From assembly GCA_000004695.1 (NCBI GenBank), contig CM000152.2, positions 640,001-704,000 of the forward strand: a stretch of DNA of 64,000 nucleotides, read 5' to 3'. The translations under genes were made by a program, and so were the position numbers. This DNA comes from Dictyostelium discoideum (Eukaryota). Within the stretch, counting starts at the first letter, position 1. Every line of letters starts with the position of its first letter. The notes under the pieces were generated by a model. That model was not told the origin of the DNA. It made no database searches and worked only from the letters and a program-made list of their open reading frames with translations. Positions 3,703-31,801 of this stretch are shown in pieces.

Positions 3703-3990
3703 AAAAAAATACAAATATATATTTATTCAATTATTAATAAAAATATCATTACAAGTAAACTATTACTATATTTTTATAAAAATCAATATATATATATAAA
3801 TTAATTTAACGTGTATATAAAAATTTTAATTAGTGTGTGATTGTGTGTGTGCGATATTAAAGGATTATTAATAATAATAATAAAAAAAAATAGGAAATTA
3901 ATAAAAAATAAAAAAATAAAAAAAAAAAAAATAATTAATTAATGTATAAAAAAAAGTTATCTAGATTTTATAAAAATTAAAATAATAATA

Positions 3991-4202: not shown

Positions 4203-6299
4203 ATGAAAATTAAAAATAAAACAACAAAATGTTTTACAATAATACCTCCTTCTTTAACAACTTCAACAACAAAAAATATAAAATTAAGGAATTATAATTT
4301 AAATAATATTTATATTTTTTTAATTATAATTTTAATAAATTTAATAATGATTGAGCCAATAAAAAGTATGGAAAATCAAATTAATTTAACACCATTGGCA
4401 AGTATGCCAGTTCAACCATATTATATATTTCAACAAACTATAAATCATTTATCGTATGATACAATTGGCACATTTGAACAAAGATTTAGTGTCAATAAAA
4501 AGTTTGTACCGATTAATGGTAAACCCAAAGCTGTATTTTTTTTAGTAAGTGGTGAAGGACCTTTGAGTTCAGAGATTGTCAATCATAATCCATTCGTACA
4601 GATTGCCAATGAGACCCAAGCATTAATCGTTGCCTTAGAGTTACGTTACTATGGTGAAAGTATGCCATTCCTAAATATGAATAATAGTAATATGGCCTAC
4701 TTGACAACTGATCAAATATTAGAAGATTTGGCAACTTTTCAAGTATTCTTTACAAACAAGTATCAATTGAATGACATAAAATGGATAATAATGGGTTGTT
4801 CATATGCGGGTACTATCTCTGCTTGGTATCGTTTAAAGTATCCTCATCTGGTGACTGCCGCCATCGCTTCTTCGTCTCCATTTCGTGCGGAATTACGTTT
4901 CACAGAGTATGATGTCAAAGTTAGACAAAATTTAGGTGCTCCGTGTAGTAAGGCCTTTAAAAACCTATTCTCCTACATCGAGCATCTAATGATTAAAAAT
5001 AATAGTTATGTTAAATCAAAATTCACTTGTGAAAGACAATTAGATGATCGTATGTTCCTATATCTCTTATCTGAAGCTTTAACCTATTCTGTCCAATATG
5101 ATGCAAGATTTAAAATTATATCTGGTGTATGATTAATTATTTAATTATTTAATTAATTAAAAAAAATATATATAATATTTTATTAATTTACTTTTTTTTT
5201 TTTATTTTTTATATTTTTAATATATTTTATAGTTTTGTCCAAAATTTGTAAAATTAACCAATAGTTCAGAAGCATTATTAGATATGTTTTCATCCTATGT
5301 AAAGAATATGTTTTTATTTCAAAATGTCTCATGTGATGCTTATAATTTATACGAGTTTGCAAGTAATGAAATTGACTATTCTGGTACACGTTCTTGGACA
5401 TGGCAATTATGTAGAGAGTATGGTTGGTTTATGGTACCATCAGGACCAGACTCTTTTAAACCACAATCATTGGGTGAATGTTGGTGGCAAAATGATGTTT
5501 GTAAAACATTATATGGTAGAGCAATGAGACCAACCGTTGATCGTATTAATATGGTCTATGGTTCAACAAATTTTAAATATATAAGTAATGTTTTATTCAC
5601 AAATTGTGGTAATGATCCTTGGAGTACCCTTTCAATTGATCCATCTGTTTCCTTACCATTTTCACAACAAATTCATATACCTGGTGAATGTAATTATAAT
5701 ATTTATTATTTATTATTATTTATATATTTAAATTTATTTTAATTTTTATTAATTTTATTTATTAATTTTATTTTTATAGCTCATTGTGCAAATTGGTTAT
5801 CTGAACAACCAAGTGACTCAATAGAGTTAAAGAATGCAAGAGCATTGGCAAATTCATTCCTAAGACAATTTATAAGACCAGATTGTGATGAAAATGATTG
5901 TAGTACAAAGAATGGGTTATGTATTGCCAAAAAGTTAACTGATTTACAAGCTACATCCGTTTGTATTTCAAATGGGAAAATTCAAATTTCAAATCAATTA
6001 AAAAATCAATTAAATATAATGAAAGAGAATGGTACTACTAGCACAACAACAACATCAAATAATGGTAATCCTTCAACTACAAGTAATTCAAATAATAATA
6101 GTATAAATAACGAAAATAATTTATCATCACATGCCGGTAATAGTATGGATGTCGATGAGGATGACCAAAGAGAAGTTTGCTCCAGTAATGGTTCAATGTC
6201 TTCTTCTTCACCATCTAAAAATTCATTATATTTTACAAATACTCTTGCATTAACAACTACTTTATCATTTATTTCAATATTATCGACTCTAATTTTAAT

Positions 6300-20401: not shown

Positions 20402-22587
20402 TTAAGGAGAATAATCAGTTTGGTCTTCTTGTTGAATTAAATTTGATGAAGAATTTGAAGATGTTAAAGTTTTTCTATTTTTTCTCTTTTTATAAGTAAC
20501 AACCAAGGCTATAACTATTATTAAAATACCAGCTGGAATTCCTATTGACAATGAAAGTATTAATGCTAAATGGTTTGGTCTATTATATTTTCCTCTGTCA
20601 TCATAAAATGTTGGCTTGATTGGGAAAAATGAAAAATCATATTCATATCTCTGATTTTCAATTGATTGTTCAATATATTCATTATTCAATTCTTTATTTA
20701 TAGCATACTTATTATTATTATTATTATTATTAGGTATGATTTGATCTAATTGGAAATTAAAATTAAAAGTAAATGATTTAATTTCATGAGGTTTAATTTG
20801 AATAGTTTCAATTGTTTTGTTGTTTTCACCTTTATTCTCACCATCAATAATATTATTTGTTCCATTATTTGAGAAAATAATTGATGATGGTTTTTCATTT
20901 ATAAATGAATATTCTGATTCACCACATTTGATTGGAAATTTTTTATTTATTCTTGTTGAAAATTCTAATTATTATTTTATTAATTTTTTTTAAAAAAAAA
21001 AAAAAGTTAGTTAAATTCTAAATATATATATATAATATTGTACATACTATCAATTAAATTATTTTTTGTTAATTTTAAAAAAGATAAACCAGTTTCAATA
21101 AAGTTTGATATTTCTAATTCGTTAAATAATGTTGATTTATCGGTATCAGTAGTAGATTGAGTATTTGAATCAACTTCATGAATATTGAATAATCTTAAAC
21201 CGACTGTATTGTTTTTTAATGTTAATAATGATTGTAAATGAATATTTGAAGGTAATTGATTTGATAATGGTGAATATTTTAATAAATAACCAGTTTGATT
21301 ATTGTGTTTTTTGACAAACATAATTGGTTGATTTGTAATATGTAAACTTATTCTTTTTTCATTTTGTAATTGATTATTAACCAAATCCATATTAAAGTAT
21401 AATTTAGCATCACTTCTTCCAATGTCTTTACTTGGCCAATTTACTCCTTTCCAATCATCAGTATCCATAGTTCTATGAATCATAATTTCCATTTCGCCAT
21501 CTGATGGTGATGTTGCGCCAACTGACCTATCTACATAAACTGTATATTGATGATTATTATTTTCTGAGGTTTCTTTTAATTTTATATAACCTAAAACTGG
21601 GTAATAATTTTGATTGACGCTTCTATCATGATTGTAAATTCTTTTTCTAGATTCTAAACCATTATCAGTATAAAATATATCATCATTTTCAAGATCTTTT
21701 ACTTTATAATTGATTGTTGTTTCTCTATTCATATCACCGTTAATTGAATAACCAGTTTCAATGTAATTCTCTGTGATTAATGATTTGCTATTACTATTAT
21801 TGATTTCATTATTATTTTTATAAATTCTTTGAACTACAATCGATGTTACATTACAATAATCATCTACACCATATAACATTGTTAATTGAGATACTAATGG
21901 GCCATCGTGGTAGATGAATTTATCAGGGTTCTCTAAGAATCCGTGTTTTTTACCACCTTTAACATTGAAAATGTATGGACCACTCTTTTTAGTTGAATAT
22001 TGATGGAATGTTTGTTCGATTGTTTTAATTTCATTTGAATTTTTATCAGTTATTTTACTTATTAAACCATTTGATTCGAATTCTACTTTGAATCTATTAT
22101 TATTAAAATTAATTTCATTTCCTTTTTTCAATAATTTTGGTTTTGATAAATAGGTGAAATTTGATTTTGAATCTTCGCTATTAGCAATACTTAAATAATA
22201 AGTATTTAAACCTAATGGTGGTAAATTAATAATTGCAAATACAATATAATTATTTTCAATTGATTGACAATTTGAATCATCTTGAATTGGTATTATTTGA
22301 ATTTGAATTGTTTTATTTGATATAGCTTCAACCAATTGAATTGATTCTAATAATTGATTATCATTTTTATTAACTTTTATTCTAAATGAAACATGTTGGT
22401 TAACTTCCCAACCTAATGTATTGTGGAATACTAATGAATATTGATTATTTGATTCATTTGATAAATCTATTGCATTTTCAAAATTGAATGGTTCACTTTT
22501 ATTTACAGTATTATTATTATTATTACTACTACCACTACCACTACTACTGCTACTACCTGTTGTACTAATACTATTTGTATTTTTAAG

Positions 22588-22642
<55 letters not shown>

Positions 22643-24359
22643 TTATTATTATTATTATTTGTTTTGTTATTACTTTTATTTAATAAATATTCTAAAGAAT
22701 TTGAAATGATATTATAATTTGAAATTCTTGATTTTTGTAATCTTTGGAAATTATCATTTAAAACAAATGATCTTGAAGTACCTGTAACAATATCATGATG
22801 TTGAACCAATGCTATTGTATTTCTATTTTCATTTAATTGATTTGATAACGTTTGTAAATTATTAATATCGATTTGATTATTTGAATTTTCGCCAATTGCT
22901 AAAGTGTATAATATATCTGATGATTTTTGTAAAAGACTTGATTCTCTAATCAATCTTTTTAACAATGGTCTTGTTGTATAATATCCTGTCCAATATTCTA
23001 AATTACCAGTTGAATATGGAAAGAAATCTTTATTATATAATGACAATGCTGATACCTCATCATCACCATCACTAAAAGTTTCAGTGTAAACATTTTGTTT
23101 TCTACTTTTACCAAATTTATTATTTCTCAAGAAACTATCCTCCAAAGCAATGAAATATTCATCTAAAGTTGCATATTTAATTTCTTTGATATTGTAATAT
23201 TCTTTATTATCTTGTAAAGCTTTTACCCACTCTTTTGAAACTGAAAATTCAGTTTTTGCATTTGAATATCTGAAATCATCACCTAATGGAATCATTAGTA
23301 TGTTTGACTCTCTAGTTTTTGATAAATCATTGAGATATTTAGTGAATCCTTTGATACGATCATTTAATGAAAAATCTTTCTTTGGGTCAATATGTTTTGG
23401 ATAATCATAATGGATATTTAATGTGGAAACTAACATTTGTGATTGTTCTCCTAATGATTCTGAACCTTTCCATATGAATTCCATTTCTTTGACTGATTTC
23501 ATATAAGATTTAACATCATTTGAAACACGATTAATAACTAATCCTTTTATACCCATACTTGAAAAAATGGTTGGTGTTGATGATGAATATCCAAATGGAT
23601 CGATTTGCCATGCATACTCTACTGTATAGTTAAGTGTATCTTTTAACCATTGATGGCCTTGTGTCATTTGTGTTATAACATCATCAATTGTTGCTGTTGC
23701 TTCATCATTTTGTACCCATCCACCACTAATAAATGATAATTGTTTATTATTTATTAAATTTCTAACAATTTCTTTTTGAATTTCATTTTGGTCATTCCAC
23801 CACCTACTAAAAAATCCACTGTGTGTGAAATATAAAATAAAAAAATGAAAAAAAAAAAAAAAAAAATGAAAAAGGTGGTTAGTGGGAAAATGAAAAAAAA
23901 AAAAAAAAAAAAAAAGTAAAAATATTTAATGAAACGTTACATTTCTACCCAATTAAATTTCTTTTCTTTATCTAAATTTAATTCATTAACAACACCAGAT
24001 AAAATATATTGAACAATATTATAATAATATCCCTATCAAAAAAAAAAAAAAAAAATATGTTAAAAAATTTTAAAAAAAAGAAATAATTTATTAAAATTTA
24101 TATATTTAATACAAACATCATAATCTTGTAACCAACCACCATCGCAATGAGAATGAGGTATTAAAAATACAGATAATTTTTTGTCATCCCCGTTTTCTTT
24201 GTTATTAATTTGATTTATTGTTTTTAAACTTCGTTTTTCGAATTTATTGATTCCAAAAGTTGATTTATAATCGTAATTATTGTATATTATTAAAAAAGTG
24301 AATACCAAAATCCAAATACCAAAAACCCATATAATTTTAACAAATTTACTACTTTCCAT
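20402..24359 (-). CDS. GH38 alpha-mannosidase with C-terminal transmembrane anchor, copy B (tandem paralog); 4 exons approx join(20402..20964,21048..23818,23941..24032,24117..24359)
   Basis: The exon/intron architecture and splice phases match copy A, and long stretches are near-identical at the nucleotide level. It differs by a poly-N/S insertion (about 22490-22680, NNNNNNNNKNNNN...SSSSSGSGSS) and by a variant block FLRNNKFGKSRKQNVYTETFSDGDDEV. The N-terminal exon has HSHCDGGWLQDYD. The total of 3669 nt is divisible by 3. Confidence 0.8.
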
Positions 24360-24444
24360 TTTTTTAAAATATCATTATTAATAAAGTTATTATATTATAA
24401 AAGAAGGTTTTATTTTTTTATTTTTTATTTTTTATTTTTTATTT

Positions 24445-24783: not shown

Positions 24784-24819
<36 letters not shown>

Positions 24820-25493
24820 ATTTTTTTTTTTTTTTTTTTTTTTTTAAACAATGACTTGGTTTTATTTATTTTTATTATTATTATTTCAGTATATAAAAAT
24901 ACACAAAATGATATAAATTATATAAAAAATGAATGTAAACATTTTGTTTTTTTAATTTTTTTTTTAATCAAAATTTTATTTTTAATTCATTTTTGTAATT
25001 GTTTTTTTTTTTTCAAAGTGGGGAAATATAAAAAAATAGCTGAATTGGTATATTTTTTTTTATAAAAACCATTTTAAATAAAATCAAATAATTTGGTTGT
25101 TTTTTTTTTTTTTTCCTATATAAGAAATAGTATGGGAAGATTTTCTGAGAAACCACCACCAATAAAGATGAAGATGGTGAAGATGATTATTATTTTGGTG
25201 GTGATAATAGTAAAAATAGTGATGATAATGATAATGATGATGATAATGATATTATTTAATAATCAATTTAAATCTAATAAATAATATTTAAATTTATTTA
25301 TTTTCACCACAAATAAATCAAGACAATTTTTTTTTTTTTTTTATAAAAAATAATAGTGACCTAAAAATAATGAAAAAAAATCTATAAATATATATTTTTA
25401 TTTTATTAAACCTTTTTTTTATTTTATTTTTAATTTTTTGTTTTTTAATTTTTTTTATTTAAAAATGATATTATCTTCTTTTAAAATGCCAAG

Positions 25494-25653
25494 GTGCATA
25501 GATAAATCTTTCCTTCTCTGGCATTTGATTAGTATTGATTCATTTTATTACTTTAGAAATAAAATTTTAATATGATGGTGATCAACCTTTCTTTATGATA
25601 TAGTGCATAGATTAATCTTTCCTTTCTCTATCATTTGATTGGTATTGATTCAT
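25494..25653. repeat. two ~50-bp imperfect direct repeats (gtgcatagatWaatctttcctt...catttgattRgtattgattcat) separated by ~60 bp
   Basis: Copy 1 lies at about 25494-25543 and copy 2 at about 25603-25653. They sit about 700 bp upstream of the piggyBac-like ORF and about 250 bp upstream of a possible 5' exon. I saw no inverted partner downstream of the ORF. Confidence 0.7.
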
Positions 25654-26349
25654 ATATTATTATTATTATTATTATCTAGATTAAAATTGAATGTAAACCA
25701 TTTTATTTGGAAAAAAACTAATTTATTAATTGACTTTTAACACAAAAAATAAAAAAATTTTTCACATTTTTTTACGCCTTAAAAAATTAAAAAAAAAAAA
25801 AAAAATTAATAAAAATTCAGATATTTATTTTTGAAAACAAATATTAAAATGAAAGTGTGTATTTTTTTTTTTTTTTTTTTTTTTATTGAACATTTAACCA
25901 TTCTATAAATAAAATGACAAAAAAATCAGAAAAAATAAACAAAGAAAGTAATATTTCAAAAACAATAATTACAAATGCCCAAATTGATCAAAAAATGAGA
26001 AATGAGTATGTTAATTTGTGATCTTTTTTGTTTTTTAAAATTTATAATTATTAAATTTATTTTTCATTAAATAACATTTTCAATTTTTTATATAATTTGT
26101 TGTATTATTTTTTATTTTTTTAAAAAAGGGAAGCTGAAAAATTATTTTGGATTTTTAATAATAAAGTTAGACCAATTAATTATAGCGAAATTGTTGAAAA
26201 CACTACACCAAGAAAATCATCAATAAATAGAGAAAAGATTGAAAGTGAAAATAATGGTCAGGTTTATAATGAATTATTTTTTTTTAAATTGTTATTAAAT
26301 GAAGATTTATCAAAATTTTTAATTTCATTAATTAATACAAATCTTAGAC

Positions 26350-27855
26350 ATGAGAGGGAGAAAAAAATTAGATAAAGGGAAGGATATTTCAAGATTAAAT
26401 GATTTAACCGATATTACATTCTGGAAATTTATAACTGATTATTTAAAAAATATTTATTCAAATAAAAACAATGATAAGATACCACCTGAATTAATTAATT
26501 TAAAAATGATGGATCACAATAGATATTCAGCAGTACATAATGTTTTGGATATGAAAAGTCATAGATTTGAAGAATATTGTGAAATATTTATGAACAGTGC
26601 ATTGAAATATATTAATATTGGTAACGTTCTCAATTGTGATGAAACAATATACGCATATTATGGGAAAGATGCTATTAAAGATCATATATTGATTAATAAT
26701 GATAGCAAACCCCATTCAGTCGGAATTGAAGCATATAGTCTAACAACCAAATTGAATATTAGTAATTGTCCATATGTAATTAGTTATGGTCCAAGAACAC
26801 CAGAAAACTGTCAATCTCCTTTCAATTCATTAAAAACCCTTTTGGATAATTTACATTCAAAATATAATTGGGAGGATCCAAGGAATAACTTAATCGTATG
26901 TTGCGATAGTGCCTTTGCATTAGTAAATAATAAAGAATGTTTAGATGAATTGAAATGTCGTATTTTATCCTCAACAAGGAAGAGTGGCGTGACTGTTCCT
27001 CAAGAAATTAAAATATTCGTCAAACCTTTATTAACCATACATAAAACATTCCTTTTTTATGATGAAAGCACAGGACTATTGTACGAGTATACCAAAAATA
27101 CCGCTGGTCATATCAATTGCATTGCAACAAATCTATATTCAAGATATTCAAACCCATATGTGGAAATTAATAATAATCTAAATATAGAACAATTTGCAAC
27201 TATTGGAAATTTATTTCGTTTTTCAAAAAAAGAATTAGAACTAATTTTTGTTGGTGAGACACTGCATGGGACAACATTGGAAATATTAAATGGCAAATAT
27301 AAAACTAACTTTGTAAAACCACCATGTGGTCCTTTTTGGAACGAACAAATGTTGAAGAAATTATCAGCTGAACACATAGCTCAAATATATAATGATAAAT
27401 ACAAAAAAGAAAACAACAATCTTAACAAAAACGACAAAATTAAAAAAATATTAGAACCATTGGATAGCACTCAAGATGGTGGGATATATGATAAAAACAA
27501 AAATTATTCCAAGAAGGAACTACAAGATTTAAAAATAAAAGTTATTGGTACTCATCAGAATCGTTCCCAAATGATTCATGATCAATATATTTTCTGGTAC
27601 AACCTTGTAGACATCACAGACAAACGTTACTATGCTACAATTAGAGGTAGCTCTTCCCACTCGTATACTAAATTATTTATATTAGGTGGTTTGTTTGATT
27701 TAATACTAAATTCATATTCTCTGCACCGTGAATATCATGAAATGGAATTAGAATGTAAAAATCCAGAAAATCAACCTCCGGAAATAATTCAAACAATAAA
27801 TAAATTTGTTGAATCCCTCATTTTTCAATTTCATGAATTAAAAGAATTACAATAA
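26350..27855 (+). CDS. piggyBac-transposase-like protein (DDE_Tnp_1_7-like core), probably domesticated or inactive
   Basis: This is a single 501-aa ORF. Three blocks match the piggyBac core: LNCDETIYAYYGKDAIKD, KPHSVGIEAYSL and LIVCCDSAFALVNNKECL. The corresponding piggyBac blocks are TIDEQLLGFRGR (first Asp), KPxKYGIKI and ITCDNWFTSIPLAKNLL (second Asp). The region aligning to the third Asp block (YNQTKGGVDTLDQ) reads YEYTKNTAGHINC with no Asp. The piggyBac C-terminal Cys-rich domain is absent. Possible short upstream exons exist at about 25915-26007 and 26124-26264. Confidence 0.6.
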   Translation: MRGRKKLDKGKDISRLNDLTDITFWKFITDYLKNIYSNKNNDKIPPELINLKMMDHNRYSAVHNVLDMKSHRFEEYCEIFMNSALKYINIGNVLNCDETIYAYYGKDAIKDHILINNDSKPHSVGIEAYSLTTKLNISNCPYVISYGPRTPENCQSPFNSLKTLLDNLHSKYNWEDPRNNLIVCCDSAFALVNNKECLDELKCRILSSTRKSGVTVPQEIKIFVKPLLTIHKTFLFYDESTGLLYEYTKNTAGHINCIATNLYSRYSNPYVEINNNLNIEQFATIGNLFRFSKKELELIFVGETLHGTTLEILNGKYKTNFVKPPCGPFWNEQMLKKLSAEHIAQIYNDKYKKENNNLNKNDKIKKILEPLDSTQDGGIYDKNKNYSKKELQDLKIKVIGTHQNRSQMIHDQYIFWYNLVDITDKRYYATIRGSSSHSYTKLFILGGLFDLILNSYSLHREYHEMELECKNPENQPPEIIQTINKFVESLIFQFHELKELQ

Positions 27856-28484
27856 ATCAATTTACAATCAATAAAACTGTTTTAATTATTTTTTTTATTT
27901 TTTTTTTATTTTTTTTATTTTTTTTTTTGAAATTTTTTTTTTTTTTTAATATTAAAAAATGTGAAAATTTTTTTTATTTTTTGTGTTAAAAGTCAGTAAT
28001 AAAAAAAAAAATTATTAAAGTTAGATTTAAATTTTAATTTATTTTTTATTATTTATTTTTTATTATTTGTTTTTTTTTTATTAACTTTACCATTTTTTAT
28101 TTTATTTTAAACAAACAATTGACTTTTTATCTAATTCTTTTTAATTGTTAGAGTTAGATTTACTTTTTTTTTTTCTATTTGTTATTTATTTTTTTTTTTT
28201 ACATTTGCTTGAATGATAATTTTTTTTTTTACTCTATTTATACTTGATCATTTTTTAAATTTTAAATTATTTGAAAATAAATAAAAGAAATTTTTTTTTT
28301 TTTAAACTTTAAAAAAAAGAATGGTATTACATTCATTTTTATTTTTTTTCCATTTTTTAAATTATTTTTTTTTTCAATTTCTCACAATTTTAAAAAAAAA
28401 ATAAAAAATAAAAATAAAAAAATAAAAAAATTTATTTAACAACAAATAAAAAGAATTAATTCTAACAAAGAAATTATTTATGCG

Positions 28485-28520
<36 letters not shown>

Positions 28521-28575
28521 ATTTGTAAACTTATTATTTTCATTAATTTTATTTTATTTTATTTTCACTTTAGTT

Positions 28576-31500
28576 TTATTTTTTACTTTTACCAAAAAAT
28601 CTTGAGGAAGATTTTTTTTCATCTTTTTTCTTGGATTTATTATCTTCATCGATTAAGTTATTATCCAATTCGATGATAGTTTTAGTAGGGATTGAATTAT
28701 TACCTTGAAGATGATTATAGGATAAAGAGATAGTTGAGGAGGATCTAATTGGAGATGATTGGAAAGATAAAGAAGCAGTATGAGAACGACGTGGTTTCAA
28801 AGGGAATAACTCTTTCAAAGAGTCAATTCTATCTTGAATTTGTTGATGTAAAACCTGATGAAGTATTTTCTCTTCTGGATCGAAAATTTCGAGATCTGAT
28901 TGATTAAAGTATAACTGTTTCCAAACCTTGAATCTCTTTATGGAGCAATCAGGAAAGATGACATCACGCTCCTTTATGCCGGTTGGCTGATAGAGAGGGT
29001 TGATGTACTCTTTTAGATTGCCGTCCATCTCTGCCCAAAGACTGATGGTTTTGCCATAGATATGGTTTTGCACTCTCTCTTTCTCTGTGTTGAATAAAAA
29101 GTTACCATATTTGCCACTGTAGGAATGATAAAGTATAGTTTTCAAAAAGTTTGCATTAAATTCGAATTTGCTTGGAAATTGATGAATGATTTGGTAGCAT
29201 GCCTCAATGAATTGGTAGAGTATGGGTGATTGCTCACTCTCGTCTTTACCATGAACTTGACCACAACGTTGAGCGAATTTATGACCGAAACTAAGCCACT
29301 CCTTTTCAATTAGGATTTGAAAGCCTCTAATGGTTCTAAAGTATGGGTCTAGCAAAAGTTCAGCCAATGAGACCAATTGTGATGTTCTATCCCATCCATC
29401 ACTACAATGTACCAATACATTGTGATGTTGTAAATGAATTAGTTTTGCCAATCTAGTTGCACCTTGAATCACCAATTTAATATGACCAAACCAACCACTA
29501 GATTCCAATTGATTGAACCAGCCATCTTCCTTATCAATGGATGATACTGCTGCATCTTTAATCTTCCAAAGGGAATGTCTCATTGAATGAATATTTGCAA
29601 TATTTAAAAACTCTAATGTACAACCTGGATAATTATTTAATATCTCCCATCCTGCACCTTTTGCACGATTACCAACTGCATTTGCATATGGTCTACAATC
29701 TAATATATACAATGTTCTATCTGAACTATTATTTTCTTTATTACTACCACTACCGCTACCTCCGCTACCTCCACTACTACCACTACCAGCAGTACTTGTC
29801 ATACGAATTGAATTTAATAAATTTTCATCCTCAGTTGAACGATTACCACCAATGCCAACCATTGGCTGACTACAACGAGTGATTGAGCATTTATTAGACC
29901 AATGTCTATAGGAGAGTACTGGTATTCTACCTTTACTACGAAATTGTGCAACACTTTTCAATTGTTCATCAGTGATTGATTCTGGAACACCCATTAATCC
30001 TGGATAACTATCACAAATGAAATAGTTATAATTTGCATCTGATACTCTCCAATCTGGTGATGGTACACCCATACGTGCATATTCATCACGTGCACTATAC
30101 AATGTCCATCCTAATCCAACCAACTCCAATCTAGTATACTCTTGTCTAAGATTATAACAAAACAATGTTGTTGGACTTGTACTTTGATATTGTTCAATAC
30201 ATCCTCTAACATCTTTTAAACTTGAATTACTCTTATCAAATGAAATACTATGAATTCTATAATCCTTACAAATGAAATTTAATCTATATGAAAATTCACC
30301 ACCACCTTGTTTCTTTTTACCATTTTTAGTTAATTTTGAAATAGTATGTAATGAAAAATGTTTCTTTTTTAAAAAAAAAAAATTAAAAAAAAAAAAATTT
30401 AAATTAATATTATATATATATAAATATATATATTATAAAGTATATACTTACCACATATGGTTCATTCTTTGTTGTATAACCATAAAAAATAATTTGAAAG
30501 TTTGTTAAATATAATGAACCTTTTATAAATTCATCTTCAATTTCACTAAATTGATGATTATTCATATTGTTATTATTTATTGCTGTATTTTTTCTATTGT
30601 TATTATTATTTGATGGTTGTGTTGGAGTTGAAGTTGTCGTTGTTGTTGTTGTCGTTGTTGTTGATGATGAACCATTTTGTTGAATTCTTGAATTATCAAC
30701 TAAATGATAATTACAAGATTCAACTTTTAATAATAATTTCTCACCATCTGATAATTGAACATGATCAGGTAATTGAATGGTTCTAAATGTGTTTACTTGA
30801 TTTCTTATATTTCTAATCATTTCACCATAAAGTAATACTGTATTCACAGAGGTTTCAAAAATTAATTTCTTTTTAACTATTAATATCTTTGCTTTAATAT
30901 TATCTAAACATTTATGAATAAGTTGGTGCATTGATTCAATACTTTTAACTGATCTTTCATCTTTTTATTATTATTAAAAAAAAAAATATATATATTACAA
31001 TTAGTATTTTTTAAAATAATGACATTTTTGATTTGTGTGTGTGTGTGCGTGTGATTGTAATATGGTGTGGGTGGTTTTTTTTTACATACTTTTTTTACGA
31101 TTTGTTTTTGAATGAATAATATTAATTAATTCAGATTCTAAATTTGAATTAACACTTTCTTTACCATTTGAAAGATTTGATAAATTTATTGTGGCACCAC
31201 CACCACTAACTGATAAAGATGAAGAGGATGCTGATTGACGTAATGATTTTTGATTTTGATCATTAGAGTTTGATAATGATGGTGATGATTGTTGTTGTTG
31301 TGTTGGTAAACTTGGTAAATTTAAAGCAGCACCAAGAGAACCAGTTGATGTATTGGCTGTGATTGCACTACCACCATTAGCATTATTGTTATTTGATAAA
31401 TCTAAACTACTATTATTTGCACTATTATTACCACTACCACTGCCATTTGAACTATTATCAGTTGAATTATTGATATCCTCTAAAATCTTTTCAATTTCAA

Positions 31501-31801
31501 TTAAAGTTTCAGAGATTTTCATAATATCTTTAAATGATTGTGATACTTGTTTCTCCCTTTTCATTTCTGATATTTTAAAAATGATTGTATCAATAGTTTT
31601 ACTACTGATATCTTTTAATTTCTCCATTTTCTCATCGGGTCCCAATCCAGACAAATTTGAACTACTTCTTGGTTTATTACTTGGTGATAATAATTGTGAT
31701 AAAGAACCTTGAGTTTGAAGTGATTGTGTTGGTGGTAACCTAGATGATGTTGATGTTGATGTTGAGGTTGATGTTGTTGTTGCTGTTGTATTATTACTCA
31801 T
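28576..31801 (-). CDS. myotubularin-family phosphoinositide 3-phosphatase; 3 exons approx join(28576..30363,30452..30960,31090..31801)
   Basis: The last exon carries the myotubularin CX5R active site VHCSDGWDRTSQLVSLAELLLDPYFRTIRGFQILIEKEWLSFGHKF. The middle exon carries the GRAM-type motif GSLYLTNFQIIFYG. The first exon is S/T/N-rich. The junctions are a GTATGT donor in phase 1 and a GTAAGT donor in phase 0. The total of 3009 nt is divisible by 3 and gives about 1002 aa. Confidence 0.85.

What the first reader, a model, noticed from the sequence alone, without database searches (positions are those of the whole stretch)
26350..27855. piggyBac-transposase-like ORF with degenerate catalytic triad and no detectable terminal repeats
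The 501-aa ORF carries three hallmark piggyBac core blocks: xCDE(T/Q)...G, KPHxxGI and (V/T)CxD(N/S)xF(T/A).... The first two catalytic Asp positions appear conserved. The segment that should hold the third Asp aligns as TKNTAGHIN with no Asp. The C-terminal Cys-rich DNA-binding domain of active piggyBac is missing. I found no TTAA-flanked inverted repeats around the ORF. This pattern is typical of a domesticated, host-co-opted transposase rather than an active element. A piggyBac-derived gene in a dictyostelid is worth checking against the known Dictyostelium transposon repertoire.
Basis: partly seen in the sequence, partly recalled or inferred. Interest (0 to 1): 0.65.

Follow-up and report, generated by a model that had tools for sequence, protein, structure and literature searches.

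The report
Mobile piggyBac-like transposon encoding SslA1
The ORF is the known Dictyostelium gene sslA1 ("suppressor of smlA", function unknown), and it is the intact transposase of a 2.27-kb piggyBac-type DNA transposon that has inverted-repeat ends and sits at different places in different strains, so it is a mobile element and not a domesticated host gene.

Summary
The 501-aa ORF (26350-27855) is real. It is exon 3 of a 3-exon, 575-aa gene already named sslA1 in D. discoideum AX4.

The catalytic DDD triad is intact (D97/D186/D421 of the ORF); the third Asp was mis-aligned. The gene is also bracketed by 43-nt terminal inverted repeats (41/43 identical) at 25730-25772 and 27954-27996.
- **Mobility.** A second copy at an unrelated locus differs by 2 substitutions and one 3-nt indel over exactly this 2267-bp unit. 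Decayed copies, including "sslA2", lie elsewhere. Three other D. discoideum-complex assemblies and D. citrinum lack the element at this locus.
- **Confirmed.** The Cys-rich C-terminal domain is absent, here and in the whole clade.
- **Unresolved.** A TTAA duplication could not be shown.

Verdict: an autonomous, recently mobile piggyBac-superfamily transposon. No paper I could search links SslA or D. discoideum to piggyBac.

The parts
25730..27996 (+). Complete transposon, TIR to TIR, 2267 bp (TTGAC...GTCAG)
   Evidence: Similarity to the second full copy (L005, unrelated flanks) runs over window 25722-28011 only. Within 25730-27996 the two differ by 2 substitutions and a 3-nt indel. Similarity to L002, L003 and L004 ends at the same boundaries.
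25730..25772 (+). Left terminal inverted repeat (TTGACTTTTAACACAAAAAATAAAAAAATTTTTCACATTTTTT)
   Evidence: 41/43 identical to the reverse complement of the right end. The core pattern occurs only twice in the window, 0 expected.
27954..27996 (-). Right terminal inverted repeat (reverse complement CTGACTTTTAACACAAAAAATAAAAAAAATTTTCACATTTTTT)
   Evidence: The same end is seen in L003, L004, L005 and L006.
25914..26005 (+). Exon 1 of the transposase gene (sslA1), ATG at 25914
   Evidence: Splicing 25914-26005 + 26129-26256 + 26348-27855 reproduces annotated protein P0001 from residue 32 on. Exon 1 was placed by eye one base upstream of my first trial, and that corrected model was not re-run.
26129..26256 (+). 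Exon 2
   Evidence: GT/AG intron borders checked.
26348..27855 (+).
26638..26640 (+). Codon of catalytic Asp 1 (D97 of the ORF, D171 of the 575-aa protein; NCDET)
   Evidence: Invariant in the 39-sequence family alignment. Aligns to piggyBac DEQ.
26905..26907 (+). Codon of catalytic Asp 2 (D186 / D260; CCDSAF)
   Evidence: Invariant column.
27610..27612 (+). Codon of catalytic Asp 3 (D421 / D495; YNLVDITD)
   Evidence: Asp in every full-length family member. Aligned with piggyBac GGVD447 in the profile-versus-6x67 alignment.
25130..25729 (.). About 600 nt of lineage-specific DNA left of the element, absent together with it from four other genomes; not part of the transposon
   Evidence: No similarity to the element or to other loci held. 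Contains two 50-nt direct repeats, 25494-25543 and 25603-25653.
27997..28485 (.). About 490 nt of lineage-specific DNA right of the element, likewise absent from the other genomes

Best explanation
Window 25730-27996 is one full-length, apparently autonomous copy of a low-copy cut-and-paste DNA transposon of the piggyBac superfamily. Its single 3-exon gene, annotated in D. discoideum AX4 as sslA1 ('suppressor of smlA'), encodes the transposase.

Shown here:
- an RNase-H-like catalytic domain whose nearest solved fold is piggyBac;
- an intact Asp-Asp-Asp triad (D171/D260/D495 of the 575-aa protein);
- 43-nt terminal inverted repeats;
- two almost identical intact copies at unrelated loci, plus decayed copies elsewhere, including 'sslA2';
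- presence/absence polymorphism between strains.

Inferred from what is established for piggyBac (my own knowledge): the transposase binds the two TIRs as a dimer. The DDD site with Mg2+ nicks the 3' ends. The ends pass through hairpins and the element is excised. The 3'-OH ends are then joined into an A/T-rich target, most consistent with T(A/T)A|...|TAA; a TTAA spans the insertion point at one empty site.

The protein lacks piggyBac's C-terminal Cys-rich DNA-binding domain. End recognition must therefore use other parts, such as the 74-aa N-terminal exons or the enlarged insertion domain. This last point is speculative.
For: Homology:
- Exhaustive phmmer finds 54 relatives.
- 12 of 39 match PF13843 on their own: P0010 38.7 bits and the Tieghemostelium lacteum protein P0007 27.1 bits, against a cut-off of 22.4.
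- The family profile hits only 6x67 piggyBac in the PDB, E 3.7e-10.
- AF2 model: pLDDT 83.5, pTM 0.73.
- Foldseek top hits: piggyBac 1e-7, piggyBat 2.9e-5, then Tn5.

Triad.

TIRs.

Mobility:
- L005 (other chromosome, different genes) is 99.6% identical over 25722-28011 only, with 2 substitutions and 1 indel inside the element, and it encodes the identical protein.
- L002, L003, L004 and L001 lie in four further gene neighbourhoods.
- The orthologous mannosidase-myotubularin intergenic region lacks the element in ACTFIW, ACTFIR, ACTFIY and D. citrinum.
- The L002 insertion is absent from ACTFIW. The size difference equals the element and the empty site is near-clean.
- TIR cores occur only at element ends in 175 kb of loci.

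Selection: dN/dS 0.12-0.19 between subfamilies.
Against: - The protein itself fails the Pfam piggyBac model and finds no PDB relative by plain sequence search.
- No clean TTAA duplication. The window copy has TTAA|el|TAAT and L005 has TTTA|el|TAAA. The right flank is TAA in 5 of 5 copies.
- The TIRs are 43 nt and start (T/C)TGAC, unlike the typical 12-19 nt piggyBac TIRs (PMC5381638).
- There is no Cys-rich domain.
- At this locus the block missing from the other genomes is 3.35 kb, not 2.27 kb. A base-exact empty site for this copy is therefore lacking.
- Copy number is low and most copies are decayed.
- No excision or new insertion has been observed directly.
Confidence: 0.8

Rival explanations
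1. Domesticated or exapted transposase. SslA is a host protein in the counting-factor group-size pathway, derived from piggyBac, and no longer works as a transposase.
For: [quoted passage not shown] 2007, cited). It is listed among developmentally essential genes (PMC4931340). The coding sequence is under purifying selection, dN/dS 0.12-0.19. There is no Cys-rich domain.
Against: The TIRs are intact (41/43) and so is the DDD triad. Two near-identical copies sit at unrelated loci. The locus is empty in three other D. discoideum-complex genomes and in D. citrinum. No orthologue closer than 25% identity was found outside the D. discoideum complex. Purifying selection is equally expected for an active transposase.
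Confidence: 0.08
2. A recently dead element. The copies spread by transposition in the past but the family is now immobile, or the two identical copies arose by ectopic recombination or gene conversion rather than by transposition.
For: Copy number is low. L002, L003 and L004 carry frameshifts or deletions, and L001 has decayed TIRs. No identical target-site duplication is seen at the two intact copies. The window copy sits inside an unexplained 3.35-kb lineage-specific block.
Against: The similarity between the two intact copies ends at the TIR tips, to within a few bases. ORF, triad and both TIRs are intact in both copies. They show only 2 substitutions in 2267 bp.
Confidence: 0.1
3. Not piggyBac. 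The transposase belongs to another RNase-H-fold DDE superfamily, such as IS4/Tn5-like or PIF/Harbinger (3-bp TWA duplication), and the piggyBac match is only distant fold similarity.
Confidence: 0.02

Closest known systems
Trichoplusia ni piggyBac transposase and element (PDB 6x67/6x68) and bat piggyBat (9c0f)
   Different: Only 12-14% identity. The D2-D3 spacing is 235 aa against 101 in piggyBac (piggyBac residue numbers from my own knowledge). There is no C-terminal Cys-rich domain. The TIRs are 43 nt and start (T/C)TGAC, against 12-19 nt (PMC5381638). A TTAA duplication was not demonstrated. The gene has two introns.
Domesticated piggyBac-derived genes (human PGBD1-5, ciliate PiggyMac)
   Same: piggyBac-derived catalytic domain, and a reported host phenotype for the gene (SslA and group size).
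   Different: Those genes are fixed, lack TIRs, and are single-copy or orthologous across species (my own knowledge). This gene has TIRs and several copies, is polymorphic between strains, and has no orthologue at this locus even in D. citrinum.
Catalogued D. discoideum DNA transposons (Tdd-4/5, DDT-A/B/S, thug-S/T)
   Same: Low-copy class II elements of the same genome. Their transposases are described as lacking significant similarity to known transposases (PMC5633606).
   Different: The family proteins recovered here are named SslA1/SslA2 or 'hypothetical protein', never a transposon. I could not compare directly with the DDT or thug consensus sequences because they are not available in these tools. 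Identity with one of those families is therefore not excluded.
Tn5 / IS4-family transposases
   Different: Tn5 has a DDE triad with the YREK signature and is bacterial (my own knowledge). It scores lower than piggyBac in every comparison.
Dictyostelid relatives: Tieghemostelium lacteum DLAC_11814 and a Synstelium polycarpum protein
   Same: Closest non-discoideum homologues, phmmer E 1.3e-27 and 1.3e-25. They share the motif blocks and the short, Cys-poor tail. UniRef names the T. lacteum protein a 'PiggyBac transposable element-derived protein domain-containing protein'.
   Different: Only 25-26% identical. Their genomic context (TIRs, copies) was not examined.

Membership tests
piggyBac superfamily (transposase) | Catalytic domain homologous to DDE_Tnp_1_7 (PF13843) | tested here: met
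piggyBac superfamily (transposase) | Three catalytic Asp (DDD) in the conserved blocks | tested here: met
   D171, D260 and D495 of the 575-aa protein (D97, D186 and D421 of the ORF). The first two are invariant, and the third is Asp in all full-length members and aligned to piggyBac D447. Their spatial arrangement in the model could not be inspected.
piggyBac superfamily (element) | TTAA target-site duplication | tested here: inconclusive
   Window copy: TTAA|TTGAC...GTCAG|TAAT. L005: TTTA|...|TAAA. The right flank is TAA in 5 of 5 copies. At the L002/L011 empty site a TTAA spans the insertion point (CTTT-TTAA-AAAA), but the occupied allele is decayed. Rare non-TTAA sites are reported for piggyBac-like elements (PMC5381638).
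piggyBac superfamily (element) | Short terminal inverted repeats (12-19 bp) | tested here: not met
   TIRs are present, but they are 43 nt long (41/43 identical) and start TTGAC/CTGAC. The typical range is taken from PMC5381638.
piggyBac superfamily (transposase) | C-terminal Cys-rich DNA-binding domain | tested here: not met
   The 80-aa tail after D495 has 1 Cys. The whole clade has tails of about 80 aa with 0-5 Cys.
Domesticated piggyBac-derived host gene (PGBD-like) | Loss of TIRs, and a single fixed locus with syntenic orthologues | tested here: not met
   The TIRs are intact. At least 4 loci exist in one genome. The locus is empty in ACTFIW, ACTFIR, ACTFIY and D. citrinum.
Domesticated piggyBac-derived host gene (PGBD-like) | Purifying selection on the coding sequence | tested here: met
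   dN/dS is 0.116 against L001 and 0.189 against L003. This does not discriminate, because active transposase lineages show the same.
Autonomous class II (cut-and-paste) transposon | Intact transposase ORF between TIRs, several copies in unrelated flanks, and insertion polymorphism | tested here: met
Autonomous class II (cut-and-paste) transposon | Demonstrated excision and integration activity | not testable with these tools
   Needs a mobilisation assay, or new insertions in resequenced lineages.
Known D. discoideum DNA transposon families (Tdd, DDT, thug) | Sequence identity to the published consensus elements | not tested

The most novel reading that the evidence does not exclude
SslA, studied since 2007 as a 'novel protein' of the counting-factor group-size pathway and listed as a D. 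discoideum-specific developmentally essential gene, is the transposase of a still-mobile element. It would also found a deep, previously unrecognised branch of the piggyBac superfamily, with no Cys-rich domain, a doubled insertion domain, long TIRs and possibly a TAA rather than TTAA target. That branch is present in dictyostelids and in many unassigned environmental eukaryote assemblies. In the strongest version, transposase dosage itself feeds into a developmental phenotype (aggregate size), which would be exaptation caught in progress in one laboratory lineage.
Probability: 0.15. Interest if true: 0.75.

Novelty: new member of a known kind. Interest (0 to 1): 0.5.

Why it matters
- **A named gene is reinterpreted.** sslA1 and sslA2 are treated in the literature as ordinary genes of unknown function, unique to D. 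discoideum, that regulate aggregate size (PMC4931340). If they are transposon copies that differ in number and position between strains, then 'species-specific developmental gene' has a trivial explanation. The published over-expression and antisense phenotypes would need re-reading as effects of a DNA-binding or DNA-cutting enzyme.
- **A gap in the mobile-element catalogue is filled.** piggyBac is stated as 'not reported in D. discoideum'. The superfamily survey lists only Entamoeba invadens among Amoebozoa.
- **A possible endogenous tool.** An intact 2.27-kb element with defined ends is a candidate cut-and-paste tool for a model organism that now depends on REMI and heterologous systems.

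Tried and rejected
- **Direct searches of the ORF.** Pfam gave only a chance ORC5_lid hit at E 0.084. NCBIfam and PDB sequence searches also found no transposase.
- **Closest full-length relative.** P0008 alone also finds nothing in the PDB.
- **Word-indexed protein search.** It returned only D. discoideum-complex proteins, with the single sequence and with the profile. The remote relatives came only from the exhaustive search.
- **Empty site at the window locus.** I looked for a base-exact empty site. All four other genomes lack a larger 3.35-kb block, so the junction cannot be read.
- **The extra 1.1 kb.** It shows no similarity to the element above shuffled controls and no copies in other loci held.
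- **Target-site duplication.** I tried every 2-5-bp offset at the two intact copies. Only TAA or TAAT fits the window copy, and none fits L005.
- **Neighbour look-up.** A look-up with a guessed neighbouring ORF (31082-31801) failed.
- **RNA and structure checks.** Rfam found nothing in 24800-28700, there are no tRNA genes anywhere in the window, and the fold of the 50-nt direct repeats is unremarkable (z -1.06).
- **Papers not held.** Gao et al. 2007, Gomer et al. 2011 and Glockner et al. 2001. What I say about the SslA experiments beyond the paper's title is from memory.
- **A wasted search.** A search for DDT/thug was swamped by the insecticide DDT.
- **Library unavailable.** The afdb50 fold library was not available.

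Full report
**1. What is at the coordinates.** The ORF 26350..27855 (+), 501 aa, is real. The window is 75-88% A+T, which fits a dictyostelid. The annotated protein P0001 (575 aa, 100% identical over the ORF) shows that the ORF is the third exon of a gene. Two short upstream exons add 74 residues. The exons are 25914-26005, 26129-26256 and 26348-27855, with GT/AG introns. The spliced model reproduced P0001 from residue 32 on. Exon 1 was then shifted one base by eye, and that corrected model was not re-run.

**2.
- PF13843 gives no hit even at E<=10.
- NCBIfam gives no hit.
- Plain sequence search of the PDB finds only chance matches.

The relationship appears only with more sensitive methods.
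- An exhaustive phmmer search of 1.84 billion representatives gave 54 relatives at E<=1e-3, at 20-26% identity.
- The two best are dictyostelid proteins from Tieghemostelium lacteum and Synstelium polycarpum. UniRef names the T. lacteum protein 'PiggyBac transposable element-derived protein domain-containing protein'.
- 12 of 39 aligned members match PF13843 on their own. P0010 scores 38.7 bits and P0007 27.1 bits, against a gathering score of 22.4.
- A profile of the 39 sequences hits exactly one PDB sequence, the T. ni piggyBac transposase 6x67/6x68, at E 3.7e-10.
- An AlphaFold2 model built with that alignment is confident: pLDDT 83.5, pTM 0.73.
- Its best Foldseek matches are piggyBac (E 1e-7, probability 1.00), piggyBat (2.9e-5) and then Tn5.

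This is a deep branch of the piggyBac superfamily.

**3. The catalytic triad is intact.** In the family alignment D171 (NCDET) and D260 (CCDSAF) are invariant. The third Asp is D495, in FWYNLVDITDKRYY. It is Asp in every full-length member, within the pattern Y..Y..VD..D/N..Y. The profile-to-6x67 alignment places it on piggyBac's GGVDTLDQ. In ORF numbering the triad is D97, D186 and D421.

D2 and D3 are 235 residues apart, so the insertion domain is roughly twice as long as in piggyBac.

The tail after D495 is 80 aa with one Cys. Nearly all relatives also have tails of about 80 aa with 0-5 Cys.

**4. Terminal inverted repeats exist.** The longest inverted repeat within 4.2 kb brackets the gene (25722-25815 and 27911-28004). 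A gapped alignment gives a clean core. The arms 25730-25772 and 27954-27996 are 41/43 identical. The 40-nt core occurs exactly twice in the 64-kb window, in opposite orientation, with none in 100 shuffles. In 175 kb of related loci it occurs only at the ends of element copies.

**5. It is a repeated, mobile unit.**
- *L005* (ACTFIT_006355) lies on another chromosome record, among unrelated genes (PAP2, His_Phos_2, Gad2). It encodes the identical 575-aa protein. It matches the window over 25722-28011 only, at 99.6%. Within 25730-27996 there are just 2 substitutions and a 3-nt indel, all in the 5'-UTR poly-T.
- *L006* (ACTFIT_010022) is the same locus as the window, 99.7% identical over 6 kb.
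- *L002* is 98% identical to the window copy. Its product P0004 shares a 90%-identity cluster with the protein deposited as SslA2. It has a 244-bp internal deletion and frameshifts, and it sits next to an aminotransferase gene.
- *L003 and L004* (a D. cf. discoideum strain) are about 93% identical, lie in two further neighbourhoods, and are decayed.
- *L001* (strain ACTFIW) is 81% identical, with an intact ORF but eroded TIRs.

Cluster listings show at least 4 loci in one genome and about 9 annotated fragments in another.

**6. Presence/absence polymorphism.** I used the neighbouring adh_short gene as an anchor. The protein encoded in the window is identical to AX4 XP_642281, two accession numbers from sslA1 XP_642279. 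With it I fetched the orthologous locus from D. discoideum ACTFIW and ACTFIR, D. cf. discoideum ACTFIY and D. citrinum.

In all four the alpha-mannosidase and myotubularin genes are adjacent, with a spacer of 0.75-0.95 kb and no element.

The L002 insertion is likewise absent from ACTFIW. There the size difference equals the element. The empty allele reads ...AAACTTTTT^AAAAAAAAAAAAAATCTTGAG, and a TTAA spans the insertion point.

No protein more than 26% identical was found outside the D. discoideum complex. That patchiness fits a transposon, not a conserved host gene.

**7. Selection.** Nei-Gojobori dN/dS is 0.116 against L001 (dS 0.80) and 0.189 against L003. The protein has been kept functional across subfamily divergence. 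This is expected for an active transposase lineage as much as for a domesticated gene, so it does not separate the two hypotheses.

**8. Target-site duplication is unresolved.**
- The base before (T/C)TGAC is A at all 7 readable ends, and the right flank is TAA in 5 of 5 copies.
- The window copy reads TTAA|TTGAC...GTCAG|TAAT, which is compatible with a TAA or TAAT duplication.
- L005 reads TTTA|...|TAAA, which fits neither.

A canonical TTAA duplication is therefore not demonstrated. Rare non-TTAA sites are reported among piggyBac-like elements (PMC5381638).

**9. It is a known gene with an unrecognised nature.** The 90%-identity cluster of P0001 contains AX4 'suppressor of smlA' SslA1 (SSLA1_DICDI), with two AX4 accessions, and the original GenBank SslA1. 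The P0004 cluster contains SslA2.
- The only primary paper is Gao et al. [quoted passage not shown]' (reference seen). It is not held here.
- From memory only: an insertion near the start of sslA1 raised SslA levels and gave large groups, and antisense gave small groups.
- Glockner et al. 2016 list sslA1 as a developmentally essential gene, function 'Unknown', conserved only in D. discoideum (PMC4931340).
- No paper I could search links SslA to a transposase.
- A 2026 preprint states piggyBac is 'not reported in D. discoideum'.
- The 2017 superfamily survey lists only Entamoeba invadens for Amoebozoa.
- The catalogued DNA transposons of the species are Tdd, DDT and thug (PMC5633606). I could not compare sequences with these.

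**10. Mechanism.**
- *Shown:* the fold, the triad, the TIRs, the copies and the polymorphism.
- *Inferred from piggyBac biochemistry (my own knowledge):* dimeric binding of the TIRs, Mg2+-dependent nicking, hairpins on the transposon ends, precise excision, and integration into an A/T-rich site.
- *Speculative:* without a Cys-rich domain, end recognition may use the N-terminal 74 aa (predicted helix plus small sheet) or the enlarged insertion domain.

**11. Verdict.** This is an autonomous, recently mobile piggyBac-superfamily DNA transposon whose transposase is the gene sslA1. The 'degenerate triad', 'no TIRs' and 'domesticated' claims are wrong. It is a new member of a known kind, with variant features: no Cys-rich domain, long TIRs and an uncertain target. 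Interest is moderate. The value lies mainly in reinterpreting a named developmental gene and in adding a missing superfamily, and a possible tool, to a model organism.

**12. Caveats.**
- The window copy lies in a 3.35-kb lineage-specific block, of which 1.1 kb is unexplained.
- Activity has not been observed directly.
- Identity with a catalogued DDT or thug family is untested.
- The SslA phenotype data could not be read.

Noticed in passing
window 25130-25729 and 27997-28485: The DNA missing from four other genomes at this locus is about 3.35 kb. That is the 2.27-kb element plus about 600 nt on the left and about 490 nt on the right. This extra DNA is unique, unrelated to the element, and not repeated in any locus held. 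Its origin is unexplained; it could be another insertion that the element landed in, or a complex rearrangement.
   Followed up: partly
window 25494-25543 and 25603-25653: Two direct repeats of about 50 nt (GTGCATAGAT.AATCTTTCCTT..TCT..CATTTGATT.GTATTGATTCAT, about 90% identical, 109 nt apart) lie inside the extra left-flank DNA. There is no notable secondary structure (z -1.06) and no Rfam or tRNA hit.
   Followed up: partly
L004 ~3795-3835: The left end of this copy carries a perfect palindrome, TTTTTTGTGTTAAAAGTCAA|TTGACTTTTAACACAAAAAA. This is a 20-nt inverted duplication of the element's own terminus. It is reminiscent of mis-resolved hairpin ends, which is speculative.
   Followed up: no
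L002 6468; L011 5831; L004 3791 (inverted): The 13-mer ATCTTGAGAATTT, preceded by poly(A), lies next to two independent element copies and in the empty allele of one of them. It occurs nowhere else in about 240 kb examined. It could be a preferred target motif or part of another dispersed repeat.
   Followed up: partly
L006 ~6445 (equivalent to window 26361): The ACTFIT assembly has a 1-nt deletion in the A-run at the start of exon 3 of the copy at this same locus. The gene model (605 aa) compensates by reading through intron 2. This may be a real frameshift or a homopolymer assembly error.
   Followed up: no
L001 4463-5000: The divergent ACTFIW copy has about 385 nt of extra 5' sequence. It includes a second copy of the TTAATAAA.TTCAGAT motif and a 64-nt inverted repeat (4803-4866 / 4945-5008, 89%). 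Its ORF is intact although its TIRs are eroded.
   Followed up: partly
L003 7749-9045 (-): A neighbouring 288-aa gene in D. cf. discoideum carries DDE_Tnp_1/DDE_Tnp_4 domains (PIF/Harbinger-type transposase). This is another DNA-transposon-like gene close to an sslA-element copy.
   Followed up: no
L005 17865-18545 (+): The second intact copy lies near a multi-copy ORF (226 aa). AX4 members of its cluster are named 'reverse transcriptase zinc-binding domain-containing', so this is a retrotransposon-rich neighbourhood.
   Followed up: no
L007/L010 0-5 kb and window 21007-24359: Upstream of the insertion site, L007 and L010 carry two alpha-mannosidase (GH38) genes in tandem, and L008 and L009 have two large genes in the same arrangement. 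L008 and L009 also show a 70-72% internal match of the first exon region (window 23800-24440) to a second site.
   Followed up: no
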